A stretch of DNA of 42,876 nt from a virus (lineage: Duplodnaviria > Heunggongvirae > Uroviricota > Caudoviricetes), in IMG/VR virus record IMGVR_UViG_2541047698_000015. One strand, 5' to 3'. The notes beneath the pieces were generated by a model that was given only the letters and a program-made list of their open reading frames with translations, did not search any database and had not been told where the DNA came from. The position numbers were made by a program, and so were the translations under genes. Positions 1 to 20,840 of this stretch are shown here, one piece after another. How positions within the stretch are numbered: the stretch's first letter is position 1; each line of letters starts with the position of its first letter.

Positions 1-1941
1 CTTCACCACCCGCGGCGTGTCCCATTTAGCCTGCGCCAGATACTGGCCGTCAGCTGCGCTCACCTCCACCGTCAGGTGCTGCACTGCCGGTGGGATAACG
101 CTGTTCAGGGTGCCTGACTGCGGCTCAAAGCGGGCCCCGTTATCCACGATGGCTTCTTTTTCAGGTACGTGCTGCACCGCCGTGATGGCAAAGGTGCCGT
201 CCGTGTTTTCCCGGATGGAGACACAGCGGAACAGGCGACGACGCAGTGACGGCAGGGAGAGTCCCCACACACCGTATGTCTCCACACCATCAGGCAGGGT
301 GCTGACCTGTATCCGGTCAGGCGCGGGGTGTGCGGTGATGGCCACGCTCGCCGGCTTACCGCTGCCGTTAATCAGATTAACAGTGGCCGTGCCGGTCTCC
401 GGCAGTGTCACCTCCCGGTCCAGCGTCAGGGTACGGCTGGCGGCATCGATGGACAGGACACGTCCGCCGGTCAGGGTCCCGGCATAGTCGTTATCACAGA
501 TTTCAATGATGTCACCGGGTGTGTGACGCAGCCCCTGTGACCCGAGCGTGAAATCCACCGTCTGCGTTTCCAGCAGTTCGGTCTTTATCACCCACAGCCC
601 GGCACGGTGGGCCTGACCGCGGCTGGTACAGCCGAACGCGTCCATCTTCAGCAGGTTGCGTCCGTAGCGCAGTATGGCTTCCGGGTCTTCCACCAGTTCC
701 GTGGAGGTCTGCCAGCCGTTCTGCGGGTCGGTGTAATTCACCTCCACCGCCGTGTGCCGGTCCTTCAGGGCACTGAAGCTGTAGCGGAAACCCACGCCGT
801 TATCATCCACCACCACATCGCTGCTGGTGTACGGCCACACCACATCCGACGGGCGGTCCTGAACGAACGTCAGCGTCTGACCGTTCCATACCGGCATACA
901 GCGCATCGCAGAGCAGAAATCACTGAGAACGTCCCACGCCTTACGCTGTTGTGCCAGGTACGCATTAAAGGTCATCCGCGGCTCGGTCCCCCCGAAACCA
1001 TCCGGGACCGTCTGGTCGCAGTACTGCCCGATGGCATACAGCGCCCACTTGTCCACATCCGCCGCCCCCAGACGTTTTCCCATGCCGTAGCGCGGGTGAG
1101 TCAGCATGTCCCACAGACACCAGGCCGGGTTGTTGCTGTATGCCGGTTTCAGGCTGCCGTCCCAGATACCACTGTACGTGCGTTTTTCCGGGTCATAGTT
1201 TGACGGCACCTGGATGATGCGACCGCGGATATGGTAGTTCACCGTCATCTGCTGGCCGCCGAACTGCTCCGCATCCACCTGCAGCCCCACAATGGCCGTG
1301 TTCGGGTAGCACTGTTTCACATCGATGATTTCGGTGTATGACGACCACAGCGTCTTATTCTGCAGCTGGTCCGTGGTGCTGTCCGCCGTCTCCCTGACCA
1401 TCCGGATGTTAAAGGGCCGGGGAGGCAGATTATCCAGAATCACCGAGGCCAGGAACTGCGAGGTGGTCTTGCCGTTAATGGTGACATCCTTTTCCGTCAC
1501 CCAGCGGCCATTACGCTGTAACTGAATCAGAATCCGGACAGAGGAAGGATTACGGTCGCCCTTTGACGTGGTCTGCACCAGTGACTGCACCCCGAAGGTA
1601 ACCCGCAGGCGGTCAATGTTCGCGGACGTAATGGTGCGCGTCACCGGTTTTGCCTTCGTCACTTCCACGCCCAGTCCGGTTTCAGCTCCGGAGGACTCAA
1701 AGCCTTCCGGTGGTGTCTGCTCCTGCTCCCCGGCACGCCAGACCGCAGTCACACCGTGTATCACGGGATTACCGTCCGTGTCCGTCAGCGGGGTTTTGTT
1801 CACCAGAATACTCTGCAGTCCCTTCACCGGACCTTCTATCGGTCCCTCACCAATCGCATCAATCACACTCATCATCTGCGTGGATTTGAGATTATCCTTC
1901 GCCTCACGAGGCGTGTGTGCCTTACCGCCACCTTTTCCCAT
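1..1941 (-). CDS. J: tail tip / host-specificity protein J, N-terminal ~647 codons (3' end runs off the window)
   Basis: Reverse complement from ~1941 reads MGKGGGKAHTPREAKDNLKSTQ..., matching the lambda gpJ N-terminus; AGGGGAAGG SD upstream; track shows no stop-bounded minus ORF here, consistent with a frame open to the edge. Confidence 0.85.
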   Translation of the reverse strand, partial: MGKGGGKAHTPREAKDNLKSTQMMSVIDAIGEGPIEGPVKGLQSILVNKTPLTDTDGNPVIHGVTAVWRAGEQEQTPPEGFESSGAETGLGVEVTKAKPVTRTITSANIDRLRVTFGVQSLVQTTSKGDRNPSSVRILIQLQRNGRWVTEKDVTINGKTTSQFLASVILDNLPPRPFNIRMVRETADSTTDQLQNKTLWSSYTEIIDVKQCYPNTAIVGLQVDAEQFGGQQMTVNYHIRGRIIQVPSNYDPEKRTYSGIWDGSLKPAYSNNPAWCLWDMLTHPRYGMGKRLGAADVDKWALYAIGQYCDQTVPDGFGGTEPRMTFNAYLAQQRKAWDVLSDFCSAMRCMPVWNGQTLTFVQDRPSDVVWPYTSSDVVVDDNGVGFRYSFSALKDRHTAVEVNYTDPQNGWQTSTELVEDPEAILRYGRNLLKMDAFGCTSRGQAHRAGLWVIKTELLETQTVDFTLGSQGLRHTPGDIIEICDNDYAGTLTGGRVLSIDAASRTLTLDREVTLPETGTATVNLINGSGKPASVAITAHPAPDRIQVSTLPDGVETYGVWGLSLPSLRRRLFRCVSIRENTDGTFAITAVQHVPEKEAIVDNGARFEPQSGTLNSVIPPAVQHLTVEVSAADGQYLAQAKWDTPRVVK

Positions 1942-2044
1942 ACAGCCTTCCCCTGAATAAATTAACCGCCACTTGCCATTCCGTACAGAAGTCGGATATC
2001 CTTCGCCCGAAAAGCATGAAACACATTTCTGCCATGCTAAAGAG

Positions 2045-2080
2045 AAACCCCGGTATCAGCAGATACCGGGGTTTTCTTTC
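2045..2080. terminator. GC-rich hairpin (ccccggtatc-agca-gataccgggg) with U-rich flank on both strands; possible bidirectional intrinsic terminator in the I-J spacer
   Basis: 10-bp perfect stem seen directly; followed by ttttctttc on plus and tttctcttt on minus. Confidence 0.4.
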
Positions 2081-2144
2081 ATGCCCACCGATAATCCTGT
2101 TGGTTAAAACCGGTAATGGCATAAAAATTCTGAATATCTTCACA

Positions 2145-2176
2145 TTTTCACAAACTGACTGTGGCGCGTATAATTT
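2145..2176 (+). promoter_or_regulatory. putative sigma70 promoter (-35 TTCACA, 16-nt spacer, -10 TATAAT) inside the I-J spacer
   Basis: Perfect TATAAT hexamer with 5/6 -35 match at canonical spacing; no CDS downstream before the terminator. Confidence 0.35.
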
Positions 2177-2180
2177 CTCT

Positions 2181-2278
2181 GCGTTAATTTTTTTGTCGTG
2201 ATATAAGAATAATTCCTTACACTTAATCTTCGTAACTCTCCCGCAGTTCCTGTCCGCGATCACTGCGGGATTTTTTTA
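2181..2278 (+). ncRNA. candidate small RNA (~95 nt) bounded by the promoter above and an intrinsic terminator; no ATG-initiated ORF
   Basis: Promoter-to-terminator unit with AU-rich body and no start codon; inferred only, not a recognised family. Confidence 0.3.
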
Positions 2279-2280
2279 TT
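2240..2280 (+). terminator. rho-independent terminator (cccgcag...ctgcggg followed by a T7 run)
   Basis: 7-bp GC stem plus tttttttatt on the plus strand, immediately downstream of I. Confidence 0.5.
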
Positions 2281-2284
2281 CTTT

Positions 2285-2965
2285 TTACCCCTGCCGCCCG
2301 ATAACCACGACCTTTCCGCCCCCGCCTTCATCACGGGTGCTGATGTCCTGGGATATACGGCGGGAGCCAACCAGCATTTCCCCGTAAGGCACCGGCATCG
2401 GGTTCCCCTGGGCAATCATGTTATCCAGCGAGGAAAAGTACGTGTTCTGTCTGCCGTTATCCGTTGCGCGGTAATCCGGTGTTTTTGCCTTCGGGGCCAG
2501 CATCTGGGCCACACCGCCCAGTATCATGCTGGCCCCCAGTGAAAACAGCATCGTGGTGGCAGAAAAACCGCCGGCACTCAGGGCTGTACCCCATAACACC
2601 ATCGAGGCACCGGCCGTGAAGAAAGAGCCCACGATGGCTGCCGCCCCCAGCACAATCTGCAGTCCACCCTTTCCGGCCCCGGCCAGTCGCGGCACAATGT
2701 GGATGACCGTTCCCTCACCCAGCTGTTCGTGAAGACGGGCGTACACCGCCTCCGGTGCCGTGTCATCACCGGCAATACGTATCTGGTACCAGCCTTCGTT
2801 CATCTGACGGCGAAAGCCCGGCATCTGCATCGACAGGGCGCGAATGGCTTCCGCTGCCGTGTTCACATACAGGCTGAGGCGGCGGCCAAATCGTTGTAAA
2901 TCCCCGTAAAGGCGGATGCGTGCCAGTGGCGGTGACGCCAGACAGAATGCGTTCGTCGTTGCCAT
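2285..2965 (-). CDS. I: tail tip assembly protein I
   Basis: 226-aa ORF (MATTNAFCLASPPLARIRLYGDLQRF...) closely matching lambda gpI in sequence and position. Confidence 0.9.
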   Translation of the reverse strand: MATTNAFCLASPPLARIRLYGDLQRFGRRLSLYVNTAAEAIRALSMQMPGFRRQMNEGWYQIRIAGDDTAPEAVYARLHEQLGEGTVIHIVPRLAGAGKGGLQIVLGAAAIVGSFFTAGASMVLWGTALSAGGFSATTMLFSLGASMILGGVAQMLAPKAKTPDYRATDNGRQNTYFSSLDNMIAQGNPMPVPYGEMLVGSRRISQDISTRDEGGGGKVVVIGRQG

Positions 2966-3606
2966 TTTTCGGAATACCTCTCCCGTTTACTCAGTTGTTC
3001 AGGAATATGGTGCAGCAGCTCGCCGTCACCACAGTAAACGGCGGCATGATTCGGCACCGATGAACCAAAGCAGCACAGCAGCACATCGCCTGCCTGTGCA
3101 GAGGACGGAGACACCCGGCAAAAGCCGTTTTCCGCCAGGTTGTCCAGGTACAGGTTCTGGCCGTTGCGCCACCAGTCATCCTCGCGATGAAAATCCGGCA
3201 TTTCAGTCCCCGCCAGATGATAAGCATCCCGGAACAGCGTGTAACAGTCCGTCACCCCGTGCTCAAAGCGCCGTCCCGTCAGATGTGGCACACAGCGGAA
3301 TTTGTGAATGTCACCCCGGCAGACCAGCCACCAGGGCAGTGCGCTTTTTATCTGCAGCCGCCGGTCAGCCTCGCTCAGCCAGGGCAGCCCACCGGGATGA
3401 CTGTGGACCAGTGCCACAATCTCCCCCTGCATCTCTGCCCGCAGCCAGTCTTCCGGTGCGATACGAAAATACGCCTCCGGCTCCGCGGAAATATTCACAC
3501 AAGGGATATACCGCTCCCCCTCCGGCGTGCTTATCACGAAGCCGCACGACTCCGCAGGCGCACACCGCCGGGCATGCGCCAGAATCGCTGATTCAGTCTG
3601 TGTCAT
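2863..3606 (-). CDS. K: tail tip assembly protein K (JAB/MPN plus NlpC/P60-like motifs)
   Basis: Start moved to internal MTQTESAILAHARRC (ATG ~3606) to avoid overlap with L; contains HSHPGG and a Cys/His pair typical of K. Confidence 0.85.
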   Translation of the reverse strand: MTQTESAILAHARRCAPAESCGFVISTPEGERYIPCVNISAEPEAYFRIAPEDWLRAEMQGEIVALVHSHPGGLPWLSEADRRLQIKSALPWWLVCRGDIHKFRCVPHLTGRRFEHGVTDCYTLFRDAYHLAGTEMPDFHREDDWWRNGQNLYLDNLAENGFCRVSPSSAQAGDVLLCCFGSSVPNHAAVYCGDGELLHHIPEQLSKRERYSEKWQRRTHSVWRHRHWHASAFTGIYNDLAAASACM

Positions 3607-3616
3607 AAACCGGGAT

Positions 3617-4315
3617 TTACTGCGAAAGTTTATTAATGGAAAGGAAACCGCCAAAATTGCCGACATTCCTGCGCAGTTCACACCCGCGCATGCACTTGCT
3701 GCATCTGTCCTTACGGATATCCGTGGTGGGTTTATCGAACTCATCCGCCACAGCCCCGCCCGTGTAACCACACTCATCAGAGCGGTAGGTCCACATACAG
3801 GTGTTCGCCAGCATGATACGACCGGGAAACAGCGCCCCGTCCGTCTCGGTCGGTGTGGCCAGCACAAACGAGGCCGTCATGGCTGTCAGCTGCGACATCT
3901 GCTCCACCACCCAGCGGTCACTCAGCTCCTGCTCCGGGTCCGCCTCCGGATTGCCCGCAACGAAATTCACCGCATCCAGAAAACGGGCATACACCCGGCG
4001 GCGGACCACCGTGGCCCCCACCAGACTCTGCAGGTCTTCCGCCATCCCGGTGACCAGACCAAACAGATTGGACACCGTCAGCGATGGTCTGGCACTGCTG
4101 CCCTTCCCGTTCATCTCAAAGCCACTCCCCTCAATCGGGTACGCCTGATATTCACGCCCCTGCCAGGTCACCGGCTCCCCTTTTTCATTCAGCTCATTGC
4201 AGAAAAAATACCGCTCACCGCCCTGCACCGTCAGGTCGATTTCCCAGAGTACCACCCGCGGTGACTGCTCTGACTTAACCGACTCGTTCAGACTTTCTTC
4301 GCGAATATCCTGCAT
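3617..4315 (-). CDS. L: tail tip protein L
   Basis: 232 aa, MQDIREESLNE...GNFGGFLSINKLSQ, near-identical in pattern to lambda gpL. Confidence 0.95.
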   Translation of the reverse strand: MQDIREESLNESVKSEQSPRVVLWEIDLTVQGGERYFFCNELNEKGEPVTWQGREYQAYPIEGSGFEMNGKGSSARPSLTVSNLFGLVTGMAEDLQSLVGATVVRRRVYARFLDAVNFVAGNPEADPEQELSDRWVVEQMSQLTAMTASFVLATPTETDGALFPGRIMLANTCMWTYRSDECGYTGGAVADEFDKPTTDIRKDRCSKCMRGCELRRNVGNFGGFLSINKLSQ

Positions 4316-4644
4316 CAGTTCACCACCTGCTTAAACTCCGCGCTGAACTCAACGCGCAACATCCCGACCCGCGCAGACCACCCGGCACAGGTCACCTTTA
4401 TCTGCCGGTATGCATAGGGTGGCTTCCACAAAAATGCCTTCCAGCCACCGTGCTCTGCCAGGAACGCTTCCAGATGCCGGGCCTCCTCCCGGGTCACGGA
4501 AAGCGTCACCCTGTATGTTTTCAGGTCAGCATTCAGCCCTGCCGCCATACGCTGTGAGTACCCGTAACCAAAACGCACTTCACGCACCGATGGCTGCGAG
4601 TTCACCTCCATATCCGGCTTCACTTTCCAGCGAAAGGTTTTCAT
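4315..4644 (-). CDS. M: tail tip protein M
   Basis: 109 aa, MKTFRWKVKPDMEVNSQPSVREVRFGYGYSQR..., matches lambda gpM. Confidence 0.95.
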   Translation of the reverse strand: MKTFRWKVKPDMEVNSQPSVREVRFGYGYSQRMAAGLNADLKTYRVTLSVTREEARHLEAFLAEHGGWKAFLWKPPYAYRQIKVTCAGWSARVGMLRVEFSAEFKQVVN

Positions 4645-7214
4645 CCACCGCTCCCTGATAACATACCGCCATCACGCAACTGCAGCCGGAGTTCATCCTG
4701 TGCCCCCTTGCGGGCCATCTCATACACCGCTTTCATCAGCTGCGGCCCTGCCCGCCCGTTGGGGCCGTCGTTCTGAATCACCACGTGATTGTTCTGATTA
4801 AAATTAATGCCTTCCGCCCGCCGCATCTGCGCCGGACTTCCGGCACCGCCGACATAACCACCTTCCGCATAGCCCCGCATCAGGCGGTACAGATTGCCGA
4901 CACCAATCCGGCTGGTCGCCTCCTTCGTGAAGACAAACTCCCCGCGATGAACAATCCCCGCAGGTTCATATTTGCCGCCGGTTCCCGTAAATCCTCCGGT
5001 CGCAAAATGGAAGTTCGCCGCCGCAGCCTGAATGGCTGTACCGCCTGACGCGGATGCGCCACCACCAACAGCCCCGCCAATGGCGCTGCCGATACTTCCG
5101 ACAATCCCCACCATTGCCTGCTTCAGAAAAATCTCTGTCAGCATGGAGAGCACGGAACGGGTGAAACCACGCCAGTTCTGCTCACTGCCGGTCAGCATCG
5201 CCGCCATATTCTGTGCAATACCGTCAAAGGTCTGCGTGGCCGCGTTTTTAACCTGCGAAAAACTGTCCGTCGCACTTTCCGCCCACTCGCCCCAGCCGGA
5301 CTTCATCCCGGCCATCCAGCTTCCACGAAGCTGCTCCTCCGCAGACCAGGTGTTCTTCAGTGCCGATGTGGCCTTCGCCAGCGCAGCCGGATTATCACCG
5401 TACACCTCACGAAGGCGCTGCTCTTCCGACTCCCGCTGCGCCTGACGGTCAGTGAGGCCGCGGGCTTTTGCGCTGATTGCCGCCTGCTTCGCGCTCTGCT
5501 GCTGTTCAAACCGCGCCGCCTGCTGTGCCAGCTCATTCAGCCGCTTCTGGTGTTCTATCTTGTCGCCCAGCTCAGCCAGCTGGCGTTTGTACTCCAGCGT
5601 TTCTTTCTCATGGGCCAGCAGGGATTTTTCCTGCTCAGATAACTGCCGTTTCGTGGCGGCCTCTTTCAGGACCACATACTGATTTTCCGCTTCCCATAAA
5701 TCCCGGCGCTGCTGGCTGATTTTCTCATTCACACCGCTGTGTTTTTCCAGCGTCCTGAGCTCGGTTTCAAGCGCCAGCATGGCTGCATGCGCCCGGTCTT
5801 CCTGGCGCTCACCGGCAGACACCTTCACACCTGACGGCTTTTTCAGCGTCGATTCATAATCCTTTTTTGCCGACGCCATCAGCGTGTTGTAATCCGCCTG
5901 CAGGATTTTTCCGTCTTTCAGGGCCTTATTCAGCTCTTTCTGACGGGCGGTATATTTATCCAGCGGCGTCTGCAGGCGCTCATACGCCTTCTGCGCCTCT
6001 CCGGTATACTTCAGCTGTGACGCCTCACGCTCAGCCCGGTCCCTTGCCGCCAGTTCACCGGCTTTTTCCATATCCGACTGCAGCGTGGCCGCTGCCAGAC
6101 CCAGACGGGCATTTTCCCGGTCATCCCATGCCCCCTGAAGGTTCGCACGAAAAGAGGAGGTCTTTCCCCGGCGCTGGCTCCGGCTCTGGTACCACTGCCA
6201 TTTTTTATCCGCCTCATCAAATGCCTTCTGCGCACTGGCGAGCATATCCGCTGAGGATTCCGGACGACCGATATCCAGAATGGCATCCCACATCGATTTG
6301 AATGCCTTCCCTGTTTTATCCGCCCAGGTCTCCAGTGTTCCCATGTTTTCTTTCAGGCGACGGGTCTGCTCATCAAAGCCTTTCGTGGCGATATCGTTCG
6401 CCGCCTGCAATGCCCCGGCCTCGTCTCCGGAACGCTGCAGCTGTGCAACATACGCAATCTGCTCTGCCGTCACGTTACGGAACTGGCGCGCCATCGCCAT
6501 CAGTCCCGACGTCGGGTCAGTGGTCAGCTTCCCGAAGGCTTCAGCGACTTTATCCACCTCCACACCGGATGCAGACGCAAAACGCGCGACACTCTGGTTG
6601 ATGGCATCAAACTGTTCACCACCACGCACACCGGCATTCACCATGGCTGCCAGTGACTCACTCGCCTGGTTAAACGTCAGCCCTGCTGCCTGCCCGGCTC
6701 TTGAGAGAGTCAGCATACGATCGGCAGTCAGTCCGGACTGATTACCGGAAAGAACCAGGGTTTTATTAAACGCTGAAAGCGTGGAATCTCCCTGGTACCA
6801 GGCGTACACCAGCGCACCTGTCGCCACCGCCAGCGAGGTGACCCCGACCATCGGCAGGGTGATCGCACCGGCAAGCCCCCTGAACATGGGGATCATCCCG
6901 CCGAAGGAGTCCTTCACCTGACCGCCCTGTTGCAGCAGGATCAGCCAGGGATTCTGACCACCGGCAAGCTGCGTGGCGATATCCGTAAACTGTGCGGGCA
7001 GGGTTCGCATGGCCGCTTTATACTGCCCGACGGAAATCCCTGCTTTTTGTGCAGCCAGCGCCTGGCGGCTCAGGCCCTGTTCAACAGCACTGGCGGTTTT
7101 TCTGGCGTCGGTATCCAGACCTGAAAAATGACGCCTTACCCGGCTCATCTGCTCATCGAAACGGACAGCATCCAGACTAAGGTCAATAACAAGATCACCA
7201 ACCGGCTGGGACAT
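4641..7214 (-). CDS. H: tail tape measure protein H
   Basis: 857 aa, coiled-coil rich with Gly-rich C-terminal region, between the G-T region and M as in lambda. Confidence 0.95.
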   Translation of the reverse strand: MSQPVGDLVIDLSLDAVRFDEQMSRVRRHFSGLDTDARKTASAVEQGLSRQALAAQKAGISVGQYKAAMRTLPAQFTDIATQLAGGQNPWLILLQQGGQVKDSFGGMIPMFRGLAGAITLPMVGVTSLAVATGALVYAWYQGDSTLSAFNKTLVLSGNQSGLTADRMLTLSRAGQAAGLTFNQASESLAAMVNAGVRGGEQFDAINQSVARFASASGVEVDKVAEAFGKLTTDPTSGLMAMARQFRNVTAEQIAYVAQLQRSGDEAGALQAANDIATKGFDEQTRRLKENMGTLETWADKTGKAFKSMWDAILDIGRPESSADMLASAQKAFDEADKKWQWYQSRSQRRGKTSSFRANLQGAWDDRENARLGLAAATLQSDMEKAGELAARDRAEREASQLKYTGEAQKAYERLQTPLDKYTARQKELNKALKDGKILQADYNTLMASAKKDYESTLKKPSGVKVSAGERQEDRAHAAMLALETELRTLEKHSGVNEKISQQRRDLWEAENQYVVLKEAATKRQLSEQEKSLLAHEKETLEYKRQLAELGDKIEHQKRLNELAQQAARFEQQQSAKQAAISAKARGLTDRQAQRESEEQRLREVYGDNPAALAKATSALKNTWSAEEQLRGSWMAGMKSGWGEWAESATDSFSQVKNAATQTFDGIAQNMAAMLTGSEQNWRGFTRSVLSMLTEIFLKQAMVGIVGSIGSAIGGAVGGGASASGGTAIQAAAANFHFATGGFTGTGGKYEPAGIVHRGEFVFTKEATSRIGVGNLYRLMRGYAEGGYVGGAGSPAQMRRAEGINFNQNNHVVIQNDGPNGRAGPQLMKAVYEMARKGAQDELRLQLRDGGMLSGSGG

Positions 7215-11688: not shown

Positions 11689-12036
11689 TTACGGCAGCGC
11701 CGCGTGACTCAGGGCACTGCCGGTAAAGGCGTTGGCCTTTTTGTGTTCATCCACACTTTCAGGCCAGCGGATTGCCTCCGTCGCAAAGGTCCCCGACTTG
11801 TAATAGGTCAGCACCTCCTCTGTGCCTTCAAGCGGCAGTACCAGTATGCCAACCGCACTACCGGCTTTCTGTCCGTCCCAGACCACCAGTTTCCCGGTGG
11901 CCCCATCCAGCATCAGGGGTGTCAGTGCCGGTGTTGCCGAGGAAATCCCGCTGCTGCCTGTGGCGGTGTGAGCCGGATCATTACCGGCAAAAATACGTAC
12001 TTCCGCACGCTGTTCAGTGATGGTTTTCGTTACCAT
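11689..12036 (-). CDS. D: head decoration protein D
   Basis: 115 aa, ...NDPAHTATGSSGISSATPALTPLMLD...YYKSGTF..., matches lambda gpD. Confidence 0.9.
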   Translation of the reverse strand: MVTKTITEQRAEVRIFAGNDPAHTATGSSGISSATPALTPLMLDGATGKLVVWDGQKAGSAVGILVLPLEGTEEVLTYYKSGTFATEAIRWPESVDEHKKANAFTGSALSHAALP

Positions 12037-15363: not shown

Positions 15364-17275
15364 TCACTCCTCCGGACAGCTTCGCTGCCAGTTCTTTAAG
15401 GGTTGGCCGGGTCGTCTCTTCTTCCCGGGATTTTGCCAGTACAGCCAGATCAAGCTGCCAGCGTTGCACGGACACACGTAATGCCGCGTAGGCATACACC
15501 AGGCAGTCCAGCGCTTCGTTACGCCGCTTTTTGTTATCCCACAGCAGACGCATCTTTCCTTTTTCCCACTTCTCCACAAGCTCTTCCGCCACCAGTTGCT
15601 GCGCCTCTGTCTGCGAAAAAATCTCCGGATCATCAGGAAAACGGATGGCATACGACGTGGCTTCATCCGCAGGCGTGGGATCGGCTTTCATACGGGCATA
15701 GAGAATTTCTTTTGCGGTGTCCGTCCCCACTTCACACAGATAAACGCCCCGCTGATTGCGGGTTTTTGGCATGGTGATCACCGGCTTGCCATAAACAGAT
15801 GCACCTTTTACCGGCAGCACCCGGAAAACACCGTGTTTTTTTGACCTCTGATAGACAATTTCGCCATCGATCCCCCCGGTGTCCCAGCAGACACGGGAAA
15901 TGGTCATTTCGGTGCCATCTGCATGGCAGTATTTTTTGTTGATCGCCGCATCCACACGTAACAGCGTCTCTTCCTCATCAGGACGCCCCATAATGATGAT
16001 TTTATCCACCAGAAAAGCTTCCTCTCCCGGTGCCCATCCCCAGACATACATCTCAAAACGGTTTCGCTGCGAGTCAATGCCCGCCGTCAGATAAACCACC
16101 CGGGCAGGCACCGCCGCCGTGTAATGCACGACCTTATCCATCAGTACCTGGTGATCGAGTTTTTCGCCCACGGCCTCTTCCCAGGTCTCGCCCAGCGTGG
16201 TGTTCACAAAGGTTTTCAGGCCGTTGGGATCTTTCAGTGCATCCAGCCAGTCATAGACAATCTGTACCCAGGTGGTGAACGGACTGTACGCTGTCCAGAT
16301 ATGGAACGTGATGGAGCGCGGCGGCGGAATTTCATTATCCGCGGCGCTGAAAAACGTCAGACCGTCACGGGTCCACATCCCCGTGTTTTCACAGATCCAC
16401 CGCCCGTTGCTCTGGTCAAGCTCAGACTGATGGATCACGCAGCCATGATGTTCACAGAGGTAGAAAACGCTTTCGGGGCTGTCCTTCTCCCATTTAAGGC
16501 CAAAAGGCGTGGATTCATCGCCAAATTTCAGATACTGCTCCTCCCCACAGTGTGGGCAGGGCACATAAAAACGCATGAAATGCGCCGACTCGTTGGCCGC
16601 TTTTTCGATCTGGCAGGTGCCTTTGATTTTAGGCGTCGAGCCGCGAATGGATTTGGGCCATACAGAGCCCTCAATACGTTTATCCCCAAGCAGGGTTGGC
16701 GAACCCTCTTTTTCGACATCCGGTTCGAACGAGGAAAGTTCGTCATAGCAGACCACGTCCACGGATTTTTCACGGTAGTTTTTGGCGGCAGCGCCGCCCA
16801 GGCACCAGAAGCCCACACCCGATGAAAAGCGTTTCAGCGTGAGAGTATTGTCACGATGTTTACGCCCCAGCCATGGAGAAAGGTCTTTCAGACATGGCAC
16901 ATCCCGAATCGTCGCCTCCACGTGAGACTTCATAAAATCTTCAGCGGCAGAATCCGTGGGCTGAAAAAGCAGACTGTTTCGGGATTTATGCTCAATAAAA
17001 TACCCGACGACTCCCAGCAACATCTTTGTATAGCCAACACGGGCAGATTTAATCAGATTAACAGTCCGGATCTGATCATTCCCCATGCTGTTCATGATGG
17101 CGATCTGGAACGGCAGCGTTTTCCATTCTCCCTCACCATATGAAGATTCTTTAGGCAGATAATAATTTTGATCAGCCCATTCAACTGGCGTCACCGGCAA
17201 TGCCCTTATCAGGGGCTGTAATGCTGTTGTGACAGCACTCATCATATTATTCAGTTGTTGCTCTGATATATTCAT
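15347..17275 (-). CDS. A: terminase large subunit A
   Basis: Start moved to internal MNISEQQLNN; very strong match to lambda gpA throughout (e.g. KSARVGYTKMLLGVVGYFIEHK, CPHCGEEQYLKFGD). Confidence 0.95.
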   Translation of the reverse strand: MNISEQQLNNMMSAVTTALQPLIRALPVTPVEWADQNYYLPKESSYGEGEWKTLPFQIAIMNSMGNDQIRTVNLIKSARVGYTKMLLGVVGYFIEHKSRNSLLFQPTDSAAEDFMKSHVEATIRDVPCLKDLSPWLGRKHRDNTLTLKRFSSGVGFWCLGGAAAKNYREKSVDVVCYDELSSFEPDVEKEGSPTLLGDKRIEGSVWPKSIRGSTPKIKGTCQIEKAANESAHFMRFYVPCPHCGEEQYLKFGDESTPFGLKWEKDSPESVFYLCEHHGCVIHQSELDQSNGRWICENTGMWTRDGLTFFSAADNEIPPPRSITFHIWTAYSPFTTWVQIVYDWLDALKDPNGLKTFVNTTLGETWEEAVGEKLDHQVLMDKVVHYTAAVPARVVYLTAGIDSQRNRFEMYVWGWAPGEEAFLVDKIIIMGRPDEEETLLRVDAAINKKYCHADGTEMTISRVCWDTGGIDGEIVYQRSKKHGVFRVLPVKGASVYGKPVITMPKTRNQRGVYLCEVGTDTAKEILYARMKADPTPADEATSYAIRFPDDPEIFSQTEAQQLVAEELVEKWEKGKMRLLWDNKKRRNEALDCLVYAYAALRVSVQRWQLDLAVLAKSREEETTRPTLKELAAKLSGGVNGYSR

Positions 17276-17756
17276 CGAGTAAATCCGGTAATTTATCCCC
17301 CGCCCGCGCACACTGATTTGCCCCCTTCGCAATAAGGGTTTTCAGATGGTCAAGATGGCGCGGTGTTAAATCAGGAAACTGTCGCTGCATGGATAAAGGG
17401 ATGGAATCAAGCGTACTGGATAACGCCATTGCCAGCTTGCTGAGAGCAAAAATACAGAACCCGGTATCAATAAGTTTTCCTTTTGACACCTCATTTTTTA
17501 ACTGCTGTGTAACAGCCTGTTCTGCTGTCAGTTCCCATCTGGCAATAAGCAATTTCTCCTCATAGTCGTCTTCGCTATCGCCATCAGGCACATCGTTTTT
17601 ACTTCTTCTCAGATACGATATGTAAAAATCGCGCCAGGCATCCAGATCCAGTTGCCCTCGCTTATTCGATATCGGGGCACCCGGCAATTTCTGCAATCTG
17701 CGAAGCTGGCGATCGGTCAGACTTAAATGCCTGGCAACTTCAGTCTGCGTAGCCAC
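17247..17756 (-). CDS. nu1: terminase small subunit Nu1 (GTG start)
   Basis: 169 aa; C-terminal half TGFCIFALSKLAMALSSTLDSIPLSMQRQFPDLTPRHLDHLK... matches lambda Nu1; N-terminal HTH-like region. Confidence 0.9.
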   Translation of the reverse strand: MATQTEVARHLSLTDRQLRRLQKLPGAPISNKRGQLDLDAWRDFYISYLRRSKNDVPDGDSEDDYEEKLLIARWELTAEQAVTQQLKNEVSKGKLIDTGFCIFALSKLAMALSSTLDSIPLSMQRQFPDLTPRHLDHLKTLIAKGANQCARAGDKLPDLLDEYIRATTE

Positions 17757-18099: not shown

Positions 18100-18351
18100 A
18101 TGAAAATCAGAAATATTCTCGCTATCTCCCTTGCAACATCATCCTTCAGTTGCCTGGCATTTAAATCCTCGCCCAATGTGCTACCAGGACCAACGAATCA
18201 ACTAACTGCGGTAGAAAGTAAAATTATCGGACATTTTTATGCCCCACACAGTGCATTACCCGGAACAACCATCACAGGGACATGTGACGCCTCCCCCGTC
18301 CCGGGATGCACCTGTCCGTTTTGTACTATGCTGCGTAGCCAAAACCGATAA
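18100..18351 (+). CDS. small secreted protein: Sec-type signal peptide (MKIRNILAISLATSSFSCLA) plus ~63-aa mature part with a C-terminal 4-Cys cluster
   Basis: Internal ATG of track ORF 18031..18351; AT-rich island on the strand opposite all flanking genes; no family recognised. Confidence 0.4.
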   Translation: MKIRNILAISLATSSFSCLAFKSSPNVLPGPTNQLTAVESKIIGHFYAPHSALPGTTITGTCDASPVPGCTCPFCTMLRSQNR

Positions 18352-18412
18352 CATCCGCATTTACCTGGTATTACATGATGAGTTCACGCAGCGACTGATA
18401 GAGGAAGGAAAG

Positions 18413-18592
18413 ATGGTTAGTAAAAGCAAGGCGCATTGCCGCCGCATGCTGCAGGCATTGCAACAGACGAGAGCAGGTATTTTTGACCAGTTGGAAAACT
18501 GCCAGCATACTTTGCCCGAGTATATCGCCATCTCATCGGAAACCAGTGCAACTCTTATTCATCGGGTTCCACCAGAGAAAAAGAAGAAATGA
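18413..18592 (+). CDS. small hypothetical protein (59 aa, basic C-terminus KKKK)
   Basis: Internal ATG of track ORF 18239..18592 with strong SD (AGGAAGGAAAG); 60 nt downstream of the secreted-peptide ORF; hairpin follows. Confidence 0.35.
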   Translation: MVSKSKAHCRRMLQALQQTRAGIFDQLENCQHTLPEYIAISSETSATLIHRVPPEKKKK

Positions 18593-18602
18593 ACAGTGAG
18601 GC

Positions 18603-18632
18603 GTTGTGTGGCATACAACGCCTTCTTCCATC
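18603..18632. terminator. hairpin ggcgttgt-gtggcata-acaacgcc between convergent gene sets
   Basis: 8-bp perfect inverted repeat followed by ttcttcc on plus. Confidence 0.35.
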
Positions 18633-18714: not shown

Positions 18715-19041
18715 TCAGGGACGTGACGGCGTAAAGATAAATTGTCTCTTCACTCCCTGACAGGGGCGATTCTTTTCAAATCGCCATTTCGCCATGGCCT
18801 TCACCACTTCATCACGAAACAAATTATGAGGCTCTGAGCGGAGAAAAACGATCCGTGTCACAGTCCCATCAGCACCAATATCGAACTTAACCTCAACCAG
18901 CCCCTTGATATAATTTGCTGCAGCATATTCCGGATATCGTGGATACACCGTCACTAATTGCCGGGGCTCATCAGCTTTTTGCTGCGAGCATCCCACTGCC
19001 AGGACAGATAACAGAAAAAGTAGTAAAAGGCGTCTTTTCAT
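18715..19041 (-). CDS. lipoprotein with TonB C-terminal-like domain (moron in the bor position)
   Basis: Start moved to MKRRLLLLFLLSVLAVGCSQQ (lipobox LAVGC); body YPRYPEYAAANYIKGLVEVKFDIGADGTVTRIVFLRSEPHNLFRDEVVKAMAKWRF fits the TonB_C pattern. Confidence 0.6.
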   Translation of the reverse strand: MKRRLLLLFLLSVLAVGCSQQKADEPRQLVTVYPRYPEYAAANYIKGLVEVKFDIGADGTVTRIVFLRSEPHNLFRDEVVKAMAKWRFEKNRPCQGVKRQFIFTPSRP

Positions 19042-19351
19042 TTTTATTCCTACGGGTCTTATTCTGACAATATATCCTGTGTTCCAGACTGCCACATCAC
19101 CACATCCTGTGCCATTATCTGACTCACATTACATACATCGCATCGGGATACAGTAGTAGCACTTTCTGTAATACAGCTTCCTGTTTCTTCCACCATCGCA
19201 CCGGGATAAACCCGCGAATCATTAACGCGGTAAAAACCCGGTGTGCATCGTTTTTAATTATCCCCGCACACTCGCGCAGAGGAGTCTCCCTGTCGGGCTG
19301 CGGTCTCTGTTAATGAGGGAATATAGCGACGATACGGCGCATCAACAAAAC

Positions 19352-19825
19352 TTATTTCAGGCACTGAGTGCGGATATAGTCCTGTGCCCCTTCCAGTTGC
19401 TTGTGCATCGTCATCAGCCGCTCTCTGAGGGTGAAATAATCCCGTGTAACGGTGTCTGCCAGTTGGGGGCCGGTTGCATTATCCACGCCGGAGGTGGTGG
19501 GGGCTTCACGCACGGAGCCTGGACAGGTGGCGTTGATCCGCAGGCGCTTACGACCAGCGGCAACGTCAGCGCGAAGAGTTTCATTTTCAGCTCTCGCATC
19601 GGCTAATTCCCTCGAGTATTTTGCATCGAGCGCAGCAACATCGCGCTGGCGCACCTGCATATCAGTAATGGTTGCGTTCGCCAGCTTCAGTTCACTGGCT
19701 TTGTTATCGCGCTGCGCTTTGTAGGTAATCGCGTTATCACGGTAATGGTCTGTTGCCATCCACAGCGCACCACAGGCCACCAGCAGAATAACGATAAACG
19801 CGGAAAGCATTCGGTTTATGTTCAC
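19352..19825 (-). CDS. Rz: i-spanin Rz
   Basis: 157 aa, N-terminal TM then coiled-coil ([31 protein letters not shown]...), downstream of endolysin. Confidence 0.9.
19414..19599 (-). CDS. Rz1: o-spanin Rz1, embedded in Rz in the +1 frame
   Basis: 61 aa, lipobox LVVSAC then Pro-rich [21 protein letters not shown], as in lambda Rz1. Confidence 0.8.
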
Positions 19826-20306: not shown

Positions 20307-20840
20307 TTATCTGTCGATACCCCAGCACGCCAGCGCGCTCTCCTGGTCACGACGGGATACCTGACCGTAACAGTTGTTTGAACGAATACGGCAGTCTCTG
20401 CCACCGTCCTTAATCCACCAGCGAATCGCTTCGCAGGCACCTTTTCGATCACCAGCATTAATTCGTCTGTAAAACGTCGACGGGAAACACTTACCGGGAC
20501 CAATGTTGTACGGACAGAATGACGCGATCCCCGCTTTCTGGGGTTCGGTCAGCGGCACTCTGATGTTTTTCTCCACCCACGCCAGCGCTTTATCACGCTC
20601 AATGGCGTTAACCTGGTCGCATTTTTCCTTCGACAACTTCATGCCCGGAACGACAGGTTTGCCATCCACCATGATGGCACCACGGCAGATGGTCCAGATA
20701 CCTGCACCATCACGGTATGCTGTGGTGTGGTTGCCTTCCTTTTCATCCAGAAACTGGTCGAGAATGTCAGGCGCAGGCGCACCAGCGGCAATCAGCGCCA
20801 GAACGGCAGCCGACAGGCCGTATTTGATTTTGGTGTTCAT
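20307..20840 (-). CDS. R: SAR-type endolysin (lysozyme R)
   Basis: 177 aa with hydrophobic N-terminal signal-anchor-release segment (MNTKIKYGLSAAVLALIAAGAPAP), resembling P21/RrrD-type endolysins. Confidence 0.9.
   Translation of the reverse strand: MNTKIKYGLSAAVLALIAAGAPAPDILDQFLDEKEGNHTTAYRDGAGIWTICRGAIMVDGKPVVPGMKLSKEKCDQVNAIERDKALAWVEKNIRVPLTEPQKAGIASFCPYNIGPGKCFPSTFYRRINAGDRKGACEAIRWWIKDGGRDCRIRSNNCYGQVSRRDQESALACWGIDR

What the first reader, a model, noticed from the sequence alone, without database searches (positions are those of the whole stretch)
18715..19041. Prophage lipoprotein with TonB C-terminal-like domain in the bor position
Downstream of Rz, where lambda carries bor, is a lipoprotein (lipobox LAVGC) whose mature part matches the TonB C-terminal fold signature. 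A periplasm-facing TonB-C mimic could interfere with TonB-dependent transport and therefore with TonB-dependent phages or colicins.
Basis: partly seen in the sequence, partly recalled or inferred. Interest (0 to 1): 0.5.

Follow-up and report, generated by a model that had tools for sequence, protein, structure and literature searches.

The report
Prophage lipoprotein carrying TonB's C-terminal domain
A very common E. coli prophage gene (also in classical phage 21) encodes a small lipoprotein, predicted to sit in the outer membrane, that is essentially only the receptor-docking domain of TonB; it probably acts as a decoy that jams TonB-dependent uptake, but nobody appears to have tested this.

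Summary
Window 18715-19041 (minus strand) encodes a 108-aa protein with a lipoprotein signal peptide (Cys18, Ser at +2). A tether of about 8 residues follows, then a complete TonB C-terminal domain. Pfam TonB_C gives E=7e-13 and E. coli TonB in the PDB gives E=1e-14. An AlphaFold model (pLDDT 86) lies 1.1 Å from TonB as bound to BtuB.

The protein lacks TonB's membrane anchor and proline-rich spacer, so it cannot transduce energy.

The gene is real. dN/dS is 0.10-0.14 between two alleles whose synonymous sites are saturated. Every phage-borne homologue sampled keeps a lipobox. Across Enterobacterales phages with unrelated endolysins, spanins and terminases, the gene keeps one slot: after the lysis cassette, before the terminase, on the late strand.

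It occurs in 1617 of 5426 complete E. coli genomes, in phage 21 and in Stx1a phages.

"Bor position" is only roughly right. Bor sits next to it on the other strand in phage 21, and the window simply lacks bor.

Databases already call it "TonB family protein", and PHROGs mislabels it as a spanin. I found no functional study.

The decoy mechanism is plausible and has precedent: exported TonB fragments block the TonB system, and Llp and Cor block FhuA. It remains untested, and when the gene is expressed is unresolved.

The parts
18715..19041 (-). Coding sequence of the 108-aa TonB_C lipoprotein precursor, stop codon included (RefSeq WP_000830178.1 'TonB family protein'; identical to phage 21 CPT_21_73)
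   Evidence: ORF and translation. Identical protein in phage 21, ev017, Perceval and the PhiR phages. RefSeq annotation. dN/dS 0.10-0.14 against the 72%-identical allele.
19048..19051 (-). Ribosome-binding site AGGA, 6 nt before the ATG
   Evidence: Read directly from the sequence. The phage 21 record annotates the same site.
18988..19041 (-). Lipoprotein signal peptide (residues 1-17) and the lipidated Cys18, with lipobox L-A-V-G-C. Residue +2 is Ser, which predicts sorting to the outer membrane.
   Evidence: Sequence. G17 and C18 are invariant in E. coli alleles. A lipobox is present in all 48 distinct phage-borne homologues, with Ser, Thr, Ala or Val at +2 and never Asp.
18967..18987 (-). 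Short flexible tether (residues 19-25, SQQKADE) between the lipid anchor and the folded domain
   Evidence: Low pLDDT at residues 17-21 in the model. The alignment to TonB starts at residue 23-26. This segment varies across the family.
18718..18966 (-). TonB C-terminal domain (residues 26-108, equivalent to E. coli TonB 153-235), including the Y36-P37 'YP' motif. The aromatic core is F53, F75, W86, F88 and F103, and the β3 edge strand is residues 94-103.
   Evidence: Pfam, NCBIfam and PDB sequence matches. AlphaFold model pLDDT 95-98. Foldseek TM 0.89-0.93 to TonB bound to BtuB and FhuA.
18599..18623 (-). Stable GC-rich hairpin about 90 nt downstream of the stop codon (GGCGUUGU-loop-ACAACGCC). 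It may be a weak terminator or RNA-stability element for the gene.
   Evidence: RNA fold -20.3 kcal/mol, z = -4.0 against shuffles. It fails the strict terminator scan because the T-run is interrupted.
19165..19345 (-). Conserved non-coding block between the Rz stop and the gene. It is not specific to this gene; it is the widespread 5' flank of bor/iss, here left without bor.
   Evidence: Alignment of the upstream regions of both alleles. The block occurs in 4582 of 5426 E. coli genomes, next to bor in DLP12 and next to iss on a plasmid. No Rfam match and an unremarkable fold energy.

Best explanation
The gene encodes a free-standing TonB C-terminal domain that has been re-anchored as an outer-membrane lipoprotein.

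Proposed mechanism: after export, lipidation at Cys18 and Lol sorting (Ser at +2), the domain hangs on a tether of about 8 residues from the inner leaflet of the outer membrane. That is the level at which TonB-dependent transporters present their Ton boxes. There it would dock to Ton boxes by the same β-strand addition onto strand β3 that TonB uses. It has no membrane anchor, no proline-rich spacer and no link to ExbB/ExbD, so it can deliver no force. It would therefore act as a competitive, dominant-negative decoy that uncouples transporters, and possibly incoming Ton-box-bearing colicins, from the host's energised TonB.

Expected outcome in an expressing cell:
- resistance to TonB-dependent phages (T1/phi80 type) and to group B colicins and microcins;
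- reduced siderophore and B12 uptake as the cost.

Shown here: the gene is real and under purifying selection. It has a lipoprotein signal and a TonB C-terminal fold in the transporter-bound conformation. It lacks the energy-coupling parts, and it holds a conserved late-operon slot in many phages.

Inferred: outer-membrane localisation, Ton-box binding, the phenotype, and whether it acts in lysogens or only late in lytic growth.
For: - Fold and extent: residues 23-103 align to TonB 150-230 at E=1e-14. The model superposes on TonB from the BtuB and FhuA complexes at 1.1 and 0.9 Å, not on the intertwined dimer 1ihr (rmsd 18 Å).
- The protein ends 5 residues after F103 (equivalent to TonB F230) with two prolines, so the β3 edge has no C-terminal strand of its own to cover it.
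- It cannot be an energy transducer. It scores 45-69 bits against cut-offs of 265-448 for the five TonB equivalog models. Genuine TonBs recovered in the same scan are 243-278 aa with an N-terminal transmembrane helix, unlike the 108-118-aa lipoproteins.
- The lipobox is kept in all 48 distinct phage-borne homologues, never with Asp at +2.
- Purifying selection: dN/dS is 0.10-0.14 while dS is 1.4-2.1.
- The slot after the lysis cassette and before the terminase is conserved. This holds in phages with GH24, GH19 or Phage_lysozyme endolysins, Phage_lysis or DUF2514 spanins, and GpA, Terminase_3 or HNH-type packaging.
- Precedent 1: TonB periplasmic fragments 33-239, 103-239 and 122-239 exported to the periplasm inhibit the TonB system, and TonB(33-239) abolishes ferrichrome transport (bioRxiv 10.1101/2020.01.05.895219).
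- Precedent 2: T5 Llp and the prophage Cor proteins are outer-membrane inner-leaflet lipoproteins that shut FhuA from the periplasmic side (bioRxiv 10.64898/2026.03.26.714494).
- Phage 21 uses LamB (bioRxiv 10.1101/2024.04.15.589635). Any exclusion would therefore be directed at other phages or toxins, as the decoy idea predicts.
Against: - There is no experimental evidence of any kind. Ten literature searches found no functional study, and there is no PADLOC defence model.
- By my recollection, Q160 is the site of Ton-box suppressor mutations, R166 contacts FhuA, and R158 also contacts transporters. All three are replaced: Q160 by Y33 (Leu in the other allele), R166 by Y39, and R158 by T31. 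The partner could therefore differ.
- Shutting down iron and B12 uptake would be costly to a lysogen.
- The gene lies on the late strand, and no sigma-70-like promoter scoring 9 of 12 or better lies upstream in the window. Promoter-like sites in other lineages do not exceed chance. It may therefore be made only shortly before lysis, when the benefit of exclusion is less obvious.
- Transporters are abundant, so stoichiometric blocking needs substantial expression.
Confidence: 0.42

Rival explanations
1. The net effect is the same (TonB system poisoned) but the target differs. The outer-membrane-anchored domain would bind the host's own TonB C-terminal domain by heterodimerisation, or bind the ExbD periplasmic domain. 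This would trap or divert the few hundred TonB molecules instead of occupying the many transporters.
For: [quoted passage not shown] TonB C-terminal domains crystallise as dimers, as 1ihr and 1u07 appear among the hits. Replacement of the transporter-contact residues Q160, R166 and R158 would not matter for this mechanism. Titrating a scarce protein needs less expression.
Against: The model matches the monomeric transporter-bound form and not the intertwined dimer. Identity to E. coli TonB is only about 40%. The C-terminal strand that I recall mediating the 1u07-type dimer is missing. The short tether holds the domain at the outer membrane, far from ExbD.
Confidence: 0.13
2. An envelope or virulence accessory gene unrelated to TonB function. 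Like its neighbour Bor/Iss, it would be an outer-membrane lipoprotein made in lysogens that alters envelope properties such as peptidoglycan tethering, serum resistance or adhesion. The TonB_C fold would serve only as a peptidoglycan- or protein-binding scaffold.
For: It sits beside bor in phage 21 and in 50 of 76 loci with the same allele, in the classical accessory-gene region of the late operon. One lineage has a canonical terminator right after the gene and the window has a stable hairpin there, as expected for an independent transcription unit. Non-phage, plain-signal-peptide relatives occur in Erwinia chromosomes, and similar non-lipoprotein forms occur in Serratia, so the free domain has cellular uses too. 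A peptidoglycan affinity of the TonB C-terminus has been reported (from memory, not checked here).
Against: There is no similarity to Bor. The fold is specifically TonB-like, with TolA-type domains scoring TM 0.42 or less. No convincing promoter was found.
Confidence: 0.17
3. A lysis accessory protein. Made with the lysis cassette, it would bind an outer-membrane or peptidoglycan partner to help or time outer-membrane disruption or progeny release. The PHROG label 'Rz-like spanin' would then be close to the truth.
For: The gene lies immediately after the spanin genes, on the same strand, in every phage lineage examined despite unrelated lysis proteins. phrog_1267, labelled 'Rz-like spanin' in the lysis category, matches at E=5e-43. 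No independent promoter was detected in the window.
Against: The window already has a complete two-component spanin: Rz (PF03245, E=2e-47) and the embedded Rz1 (PF06085, E=4e-20). The protein has neither the proline-rich short form of an o-spanin nor the C-terminal transmembrane helix of a unimolecular spanin. Gaps of 100-300 nt separate it from the spanin genes, so there is no translational coupling. The group that curated the phage 21 record annotated Rz and Rz1 as the spanins and this gene only as a 'TonB C-terminal domain protein'. This slot is a general accessory-gene hotspot; DLP12 carries bor, ybcV, ybcW and ylcI there.
Confidence: 0.08
4. A functionless fragment of a captured tonB gene, as in the early EDL933 annotation 'partial tonB-like membrane protein'.
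For: It covers only the last third of TonB. Old annotations describe it as partial or truncated.
Against: It has its own start codon, ribosome-binding site and an acquired lipoprotein signal. dN/dS is 0.10-0.14 across saturated synonymous divergence. Length and lipobox are conserved down to about 31% identity in other genera. Intact copies occur in about 30% of complete E. coli genomes.
Confidence: 0.02

Closest known systems
TonB (E. coli P02929), C-terminal domain residues 150-239
   Same: Same Pfam domain and same fold: 38-42% identity, rmsd 0.9-1.5 Å. The YP motif, G174, the aromatic residues F180, F202, W213 and F230 (Y215 becomes Phe), and the β1-β2-α2-β3 order are all kept.
   Different: There is no N-terminal transmembrane anchor with its His motif, no proline-rich rod, and hence no ExbB/ExbD coupling. 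Instead there is a lipoprotein signal and a tether of about 8 residues. The last strand of TonB (residues 231-239) is missing. Q160, R166 and R158 are replaced by Tyr, Tyr and Thr. The gene is encoded by phages, not at the tonB locus.
Engineered periplasmic TonB fragments (signal sequence fused to TonB 33-239, 103-239 or 122-239)
   Same: These are free TonB periplasmic or C-terminal domains without the energy-coupling anchor. They inhibit the TonB system, and TonB(33-239) was shown to abolish ferrichrome transport (bioRxiv 10.1101/2020.01.05.895219). This is the closest mechanistic precedent.
   Different: They are laboratory constructs, soluble in the periplasm, overexpressed, and identical in sequence to host TonB. 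The phage protein is natural, lipid-anchored, minimal (equivalent to TonB 153-235) and about 60% diverged.
T5 Llp and the Cor proteins of phi80, N15 and HK022
   Same: Small phage-encoded lipoproteins of the outer-membrane inner leaflet that act on a TonB-dependent transporter from the periplasmic side to exclude phages (bioRxiv 10.64898/2026.03.26.714494).
   Different: They are unrelated in sequence and fold; no Llp chain appears among the 50 listed Foldseek PDB hits. They are specific for FhuA and work allosterically on its plug and loops. The proposed decoy would instead address the Ton box common to all transporters.
Lambda Bor / plasmid Iss
   Same: A small lipoprotein accessory gene in the same Rz-to-cos region of lambdoid phages, often the direct neighbour of this gene.
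   Different: There is no sequence similarity. Bor is on the opposite strand with its own expression in lysogens, and it is linked to serum resistance rather than to TonB.
Rz1 and other o-spanins (the PHROG label)
   Same: Outer-membrane lipoprotein signal, and a gene next to the lysis cassette.
   Different: It has a globular 83-residue domain instead of a short proline-rich peptide. It is not embedded in Rz. A true Rz/Rz1 pair is present in the window.

Membership tests
TonB_C domain (Pfam PF03544 / TIGR01352) | Profile score above the curated threshold | tested here: met
   PF03544 scores 49.2 bits against 24.6. TIGR01352 scores 47.4 against 27.1.
TonB_C domain (Pfam PF03544 / TIGR01352) | α/β fold of solved TonB C-terminal domains | tested here: met
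   Model pLDDT is 86.3. TM normalised to the target is 0.89-0.93 and rmsd 0.9-1.1 Å to 2grx_C and 2gsk_B.
TonB_C domain (Pfam PF03544 / TIGR01352) | Conserved YP motif and aromatic core | tested here: met
   Y36-P37 aligns to Y163-P164, and F53, F75, W86 and F103 align to F180, F202, W213 and F230. These positions are invariant or nearly so in the family.
TonB energy transducer (NCBIfam TonB equivalogs) | Whole-protein score above the equivalog cut-off | tested here: not met
   45-69 bits against cut-offs of 265-448; only the last third of each model is matched.
TonB energy transducer (NCBIfam TonB equivalogs) | N-terminal uncleaved transmembrane anchor (His-containing) that couples to ExbB/ExbD | tested here: not met
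   The N-terminus is a cleavable lipoprotein signal ending in Cys18. Genuine TonBs from the same scan start with a ...SV..HG....LLYAS... helix.
TonB energy transducer (NCBIfam TonB equivalogs) | Proline-rich periplasm-spanning spacer | tested here: not met
   Only 7-8 residues (SQQKADE) separate Cys18 from the domain.
Bacterial outer-membrane lipoprotein | Signal peptide with a basic n-region, a hydrophobic core and a lipobox ending in Cys | tested here: met
   The sequence is MKRR-LLLLFLLSVLAV-GC. It fits the PROSITE PS51257 pattern as I recall it. Ala at -3 is atypical. The lipobox is conserved in all 48 phage-borne variants.
Bacterial outer-membrane lipoprotein | No inner-membrane retention signal (Asp at +2) | tested here: met
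   Residue +2 is Ser here and Ser, Thr, Ala or Val in homologues. The rule itself is established knowledge for E. coli.
Bacterial outer-membrane lipoprotein | Actual acylation, signal peptidase II cleavage and outer-membrane localisation | not testable with these tools
   Needs globomycin sensitivity, palmitate labelling and membrane fractionation.
Spanins (o-spanin or unimolecular spanin) | Small proline-rich lipoprotein encoded within or overlapping the i-spanin gene, or a lipoprotein with a C-terminal transmembrane helix | tested here: not met
   The gene is separate, 311 nt downstream of Rz. It has a globular domain and no C-terminal hydrophobic segment. Rz (PF03245) and Rz1 (PF06085) are both present.
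Bor/Iss lipoproteins | Sequence homology to lambda Bor | tested here: not met
   tblastn of Bor finds nothing significant in the window (best E = 6.2, elsewhere in the window) but finds bor in the phage 21 locus.
Llp/Cor-type superinfection-exclusion lipoproteins | Homology to Llp or Cor | tested here: not met
   No Llp or Cor chain appears among the 50 Foldseek PDB hits listed. No exclusion family was hit in PHROGs or PADLOC.
Llp/Cor-type superinfection-exclusion lipoproteins | Blocks a TonB-dependent transporter from the periplasmic face and excludes phages | not testable with these tools
   Needs plating, uptake and binding assays.

The most novel reading that the evidence does not exclude
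This is a natural 'pan-Ton-box' inhibitor. One small prophage lipoprotein, carried by about 30% of E. coli genomes, by phage 21 and by Stx1a phages, would dock on the Ton box shared by all TonB-dependent transporters and by group B colicins. It would thereby switch off the whole TonB import pathway at once. That would be a receptor-independent form of superinfection exclusion and colicin or microcin immunity. It may be timed to protect the phage factory during SOS-induced lytic growth, when neighbouring cells are also releasing colicins.
Probability: 0.3. Interest if true: 0.75.

Novelty: new variant of a known kind. Interest (0 to 1): 0.55.

Why it matters
If the decoy reading is right, a large share of E. 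coli strains carry a prophage-borne switch. These include ExPEC and Shiga-toxin lineages. The switch could change three things together:
- sensitivity to TonB-dependent phages;
- sensitivity to colicins, microcins and siderophore-antibiotic conjugates;
- iron and B12 acquisition.

That bears on phage-therapy host range, on 'Trojan horse' antibiotics such as siderophore conjugates, and on competition in the gut.

The protein would also be a natural minimal Ton-box binder. Its divergent contact residues could show what is really needed for the TonB-transporter contact.

It would extend the known phage strategy of shutting one receptor (Llp and Cor on FhuA) to shutting the shared energy coupling of a whole receptor class.

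If the reading is wrong, the gene is still among the commonest uncharacterised accessory genes of lambdoid phages, and it sits in a classical model phage where genetics is easy.

Tried and rejected
1. The conserved 180-nt block upstream (19165-19345) looked like a gene-specific leader or riboswitch, because it is far better conserved than synonymous sites of the gene. I rejected this. There is no Rfam match. Fold energy is ordinary, z = -1.06. RNAalifold stems are mostly invariant with little covariation. The tiny ORF in the block is not conserved. The block also occurs in 4582 of 5426 genomes next to bor or iss without this gene.

2. I looked for the gene's own promoter. The window has no sigma-70-like site scoring 9 of 12 or better on the gene strand. 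Four other lineages gave two weak upstream sites, one strong downstream terminator, and counts no higher than in shuffles. This is inconclusive. A hand-checked Fur-box resemblance around the conserved GATAAT matched only 10-11 of 19 positions, so I dropped it.

3. Opposite-strand ORFs between the gene and Nu1 (18100-18351 and 18414-18592) have no family support. Only the same-strand 45-aa ORF at 18371-18508 matches a phage family of unknown function, phrog_3744.

4. The first AlphaFold run, with 6 close sequences, gave pLDDT 60.8 and weak TM scores. It was superseded by the 22-sequence run.

5. The BFVD viral fold library gave no hit at E <= 1e-3, so it added nothing.

6. The 17-sequence alignment was too diverse for the search for related loci. 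Sub-family alignments worked.

7. Ten literature searches found no study of this protein.

Full report
**What is there**

The finding's coordinates are exact. On the minus strand, ATG 19041 to stop 18715 encodes 108 residues: MKRRLLLLFLLSVLAVGCSQQKADEPRQLV...FIFTPSRP. An AGGA ribosome-binding site lies 6 nt upstream.

The gene lies 311 nt downstream of a complete spanin pair. Rz is at 19352-19825 (PF03245, E=2e-47), and Rz1 is embedded at 19414-19599 (PF06085, E=4e-20). A phage lysozyme lies further upstream at 20307-20840. The terminase small subunit Nu1 (17247-17756) and the large subunit follow downstream. All of these are on the same strand.

The window is a mosaic lambdoid E. coli prophage. 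No single phage record covers more than half of a 24-kb sample of it.

**Domain and fold**

The mature part is a TonB C-terminal domain beyond reasonable doubt.
- Pfam TonB_C gives E=7.3e-13, at twice the gathering score. TIGR01352 is also above its cut-off.
- phmmer against the PDB finds E. coli TonB C-terminal domain entries at E of about 1e-14. Residues 23-103 align to TonB 150-230 without gaps.
- A first AlphaFold run on six near-identical sequences was weak, with pLDDT 60.8.
- I then recruited 22 homologues down to about 30% identity. With these the model reached mean pLDDT 86.3, with 95-98 across the domain.
- Foldseek places this model on TonB from the BtuB complex at TM 0.93 and 1.1 Å over all 81 residues. 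On TonB from the FhuA complex it gives TM 0.89 and 0.9 Å, and on TonB from the FoxA complex TM 0.84. The intertwined dimer 1ihr does not fit, at 18 Å.
- TolA-type domains score TM 0.42 or less.

**What it is not**

It is not a TonB.
- The five NCBIfam TonB equivalog models score 45-69 bits against cut-offs of 265-448, and only their last third is matched.
- The N-terminus is a cleavable lipoprotein signal, not TonB's transmembrane anchor.
- Only SQQKADE separates Cys18 from the domain, where TonB has a spacer of about 120 residues.
- Genuine TonBs picked up by the same genome scan are 243-278 aa and begin with the typical His-containing helix.
- The protein stops five residues after F103 (TonB F230) with two prolines, so TonB's last segment (231-239) is absent.

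It is also not a spanin, despite a match to PHROG phrog_1267 ('Rz-like spanin', E=5e-43). The window has its own Rz and Rz1. This protein has a globular domain and no C-terminal transmembrane segment. The curated phage 21 record calls it 'TonB C-terminal domain protein' and annotates Rz and Rz1 as the spanins.

**Is it a real, selected gene?**

Yes.
- The identical protein is in phage 21 (OL657228, CPT_21_73), ev017, Perceval and several PhiR phages. A 72%-identical allele is in Stx1a-converting phages and JLK-2012. A 41%-identical one is in a Klebsiella phage.
- Between the two E. coli alleles, dS is saturated (1.4-2.1) while dN is about 0.19, giving dN/dS of 0.10-0.14. Within the second allele dN/dS is mostly 0.10-0.17, rising to 0.24 and 0.28 in the two pairs with the fewest substitutions.
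- A search of 1.8 billion representative proteins, and then a profile search, recovered a family of 105-135-aa proteins.
- In 170 loci fetched from viral contigs and annotated records there are 48 distinct versions. Every phage-borne version has a lipobox (LAVGC, LVMGC, LLGC, LMGC, LNAC, LSAC, LTGC), with Ser, Thr, Ala or Val at +2 and never Asp.
- The coding sequence is present in 1617 of 5426 complete E. coli genomes. Of these, 1202 match at 99% identity or more and 392 carry the divergent allele.
- Short lipoprotein relatives occur in Raoultella, Klebsiella, Serratia, Erwinia, Pantoea and Rahnella.
- Erwinia also has a relative with a plain signal peptide in a non-phage chromosomal context, and Serratia has similar non-lipoprotein forms.

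**Position**

In every phage lineage examined, the gene sits directly after the lysis cassette and before the terminase small subunit, on the late strand. The neighbouring genes are not homologous between lineages:
- phage 21: SAR endolysin and Rz/Rz1, then lambda-type packaging (cos);
- JLK-2012: HNH endonuclease plus terminase;
- Klebsiella phage;
- Rahnella prophage: GH19 endolysin, Phage_lysis spanin, GpA terminase, protein at 31% identity;
- three more lineages with GH19 plus DUF2514, or Phage_lysozyme plus Terminase_3, or GH19 plus GpA.

Gaps of 100-300 nt separate the gene from the spanin genes.

In phage 21, bor lies between Rz and this gene on the opposite strand. Fifty of 76 sampled loci with the window's allele have bor there, none of the 36 loci with the divergent allele do, and the window has none. 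In K-12 DLP12 the same slot holds bor, ybcV, ybcW and ylcI.

**Expression**

This is unresolved.
- No sigma-70-like site scoring 9 of 12 or better lies upstream on the gene strand in the window.
- Two of four other lineages have a weak upstream site. One has a textbook intrinsic terminator right after the stop. None of the counts exceed shuffled controls.
- The window has a stable hairpin 90 nt downstream, at -20.3 kcal/mol with z = -4.0.

At first the 180-nt block upstream (19165-19345) looked like a dedicated leader. It is 77-100% identical between alleles whose synonymous sites are saturated. It is in fact a separate and far more widespread element. It occurs in 4582 of 5426 genomes at 11,723 places, including plasmids. 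It lies on the 5' side of bor in DLP12 and of iss on a plasmid. It has no Rfam match and ordinary fold energy. The window therefore keeps bor's flank without bor.

**Mechanism**

The anatomy points to interference with TonB. It consists of a TonB docking domain in the transporter-bound conformation, stripped of everything that couples TonB to ExbB/ExbD. A short leash holds it at the inner leaflet of the outer membrane.

Two lines of published work make this credible.
- TonB fragments 33-239, 103-239 and 122-239 exported to the periplasm inhibit the TonB system. TonB(33-239) abolishes 55Fe-ferrichrome transport and also disturbs the ExbD-TonB interaction (bioRxiv 10.1101/2020.01.05.895219).
- Phage lipoproteins of the outer-membrane inner leaflet (T5 Llp and the prophage Cor proteins) are known to silence the TonB-dependent transporter FhuA from the periplasmic side (bioRxiv 10.64898/2026.03.26.714494).

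Phage 21 adsorbs to LamB (bioRxiv 10.1101/2024.04.15.589635). The protein is therefore not protecting against the phage's own kind. Its targets would be heterologous: T1/phi80-type phages, group B colicins and microcins.

Several points count against this reading.
- Three residues that I recall as transporter contacts are replaced: Q160, the site of Ton-box suppressor mutations, R166, which contacts FhuA, and R158. Q160 becomes Tyr here and Leu in the other allele. R166 becomes Tyr and R158 becomes Thr. β-strand addition is mostly a backbone interaction, and Q160L is, from memory, a functional TonB variant.
- Blocking iron uptake is costly to a lysogen.
- The gene may be expressed only late in lytic growth.
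- There are no data at all on binding, localisation or phenotype.

I therefore put the decoy-at-the-Ton-box model at about 0.4. A variant in which TonB or ExbD is the target gets about 0.13. A TonB-unrelated envelope or virulence role like that of its neighbour Bor gets about 0.17. A lysis-accessory role gets about 0.08. The old 'partial tonB remnant' reading is essentially excluded.

**Novelty and verdict**

The sequence feature is already in the databases. EDL933 has 'partial tonB-like membrane protein encoded within prophage CP-933N', RefSeq has 'TonB family protein', and phage 21 has 'TonB C-terminal domain protein'.

Ten full-text searches found no paper that discusses or tests it. It is absent from PADLOC. 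The TonB_C fold has no counterpart in the BFVD viral structure library at E <= 1e-3.

I class it as a new variant of known kinds: a TonB_C domain turned into a phage outer-membrane lipoprotein. Functionally it sits closest to Llp and Cor, and to dominant-negative TonB fragments.

Interest is moderate to good. The hypothesis is simple and directly testable in phage 21 with standard assays. If true, it concerns about 30% of E. coli genomes.

Noticed in passing
window 19165-19345 (minus-strand sense); also L171:2501-2608 (K-12 DLP12) and L172:2501-2595 (plasmid pHNAH212872-1): A non-coding block of 110-180 nt occurs in 4582 of 5426 complete E. coli genomes, at 11,723 places of which 694 are on plasmids and up to 11 per genome. 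It lies on the 5' side of bor or iss and carries no annotation. Here it is left right after the Rz stop without bor. It is conserved far better than synonymous sites of the adjacent gene, has no Rfam family, and has ordinary fold energy. It may be the bor/iss promoter region or a recombination linker between lambdoid modules.
   Followed up: partly
PHROG phrog_1267 (matches window 18715-19041): The PHROG family that holds this protein is labelled 'Rz-like spanin' in the lysis category. That label looks wrong and will propagate into phage annotations made with PHROGs-based tools.
   Followed up: yes
window 18887-18914, plus strand: The strongest sigma-70-like site in the region (TTAACC, 16 nt, TATAAT with an extended -10 TG; 10 of 12) lies antisense inside the coding sequence, pointing towards Rz. 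The TATAAT overlaps the conserved Asn43-Tyr44-Ile45 codons, so it may be a by-product of coding.
   Followed up: no
L005-L007 (Erwinia rhapontici chromosome, gene at 6001-6342); proteins P0184 and P0186 (Serratia): Free-standing TonB_C proteins of 113-119 aa have an ordinary signal peptide instead of a lipobox. The Erwinia one sits in a non-phage chromosomal neighbourhood between an Fe-ADH gene and a GH3 glycosidase gene. Soluble periplasmic TonB domains therefore also exist as cellular genes.
   Followed up: partly
L014:4318-4337: In one phage lineage (lipobox SLNAC) a canonical intrinsic terminator (8-bp GC stem plus a T-run) follows the gene's stop codon directly. This is the hallmark of an independently transcribed accessory gene inside the late operon.
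   Followed up: no
window 18371-18508, minus strand: A 45-aa ORF downstream on the same strand matches phrog_3744 (unknown function, E=1e-31) and is annotated in RefSeq and in phage 21. It travels with the TonB_C gene in these prophages.
   Followed up: partly
window 1-4600: Downstream of the tape-measure gene (4641-7214, minus strand), the ORF pattern changes to short plus-strand ORFs (17-487, 607-1203, 1568-1960). No room is left for a J-type tail-tip gene, so the tail module may be cut by the window edge or the prophage may be truncated.
   Followed up: no
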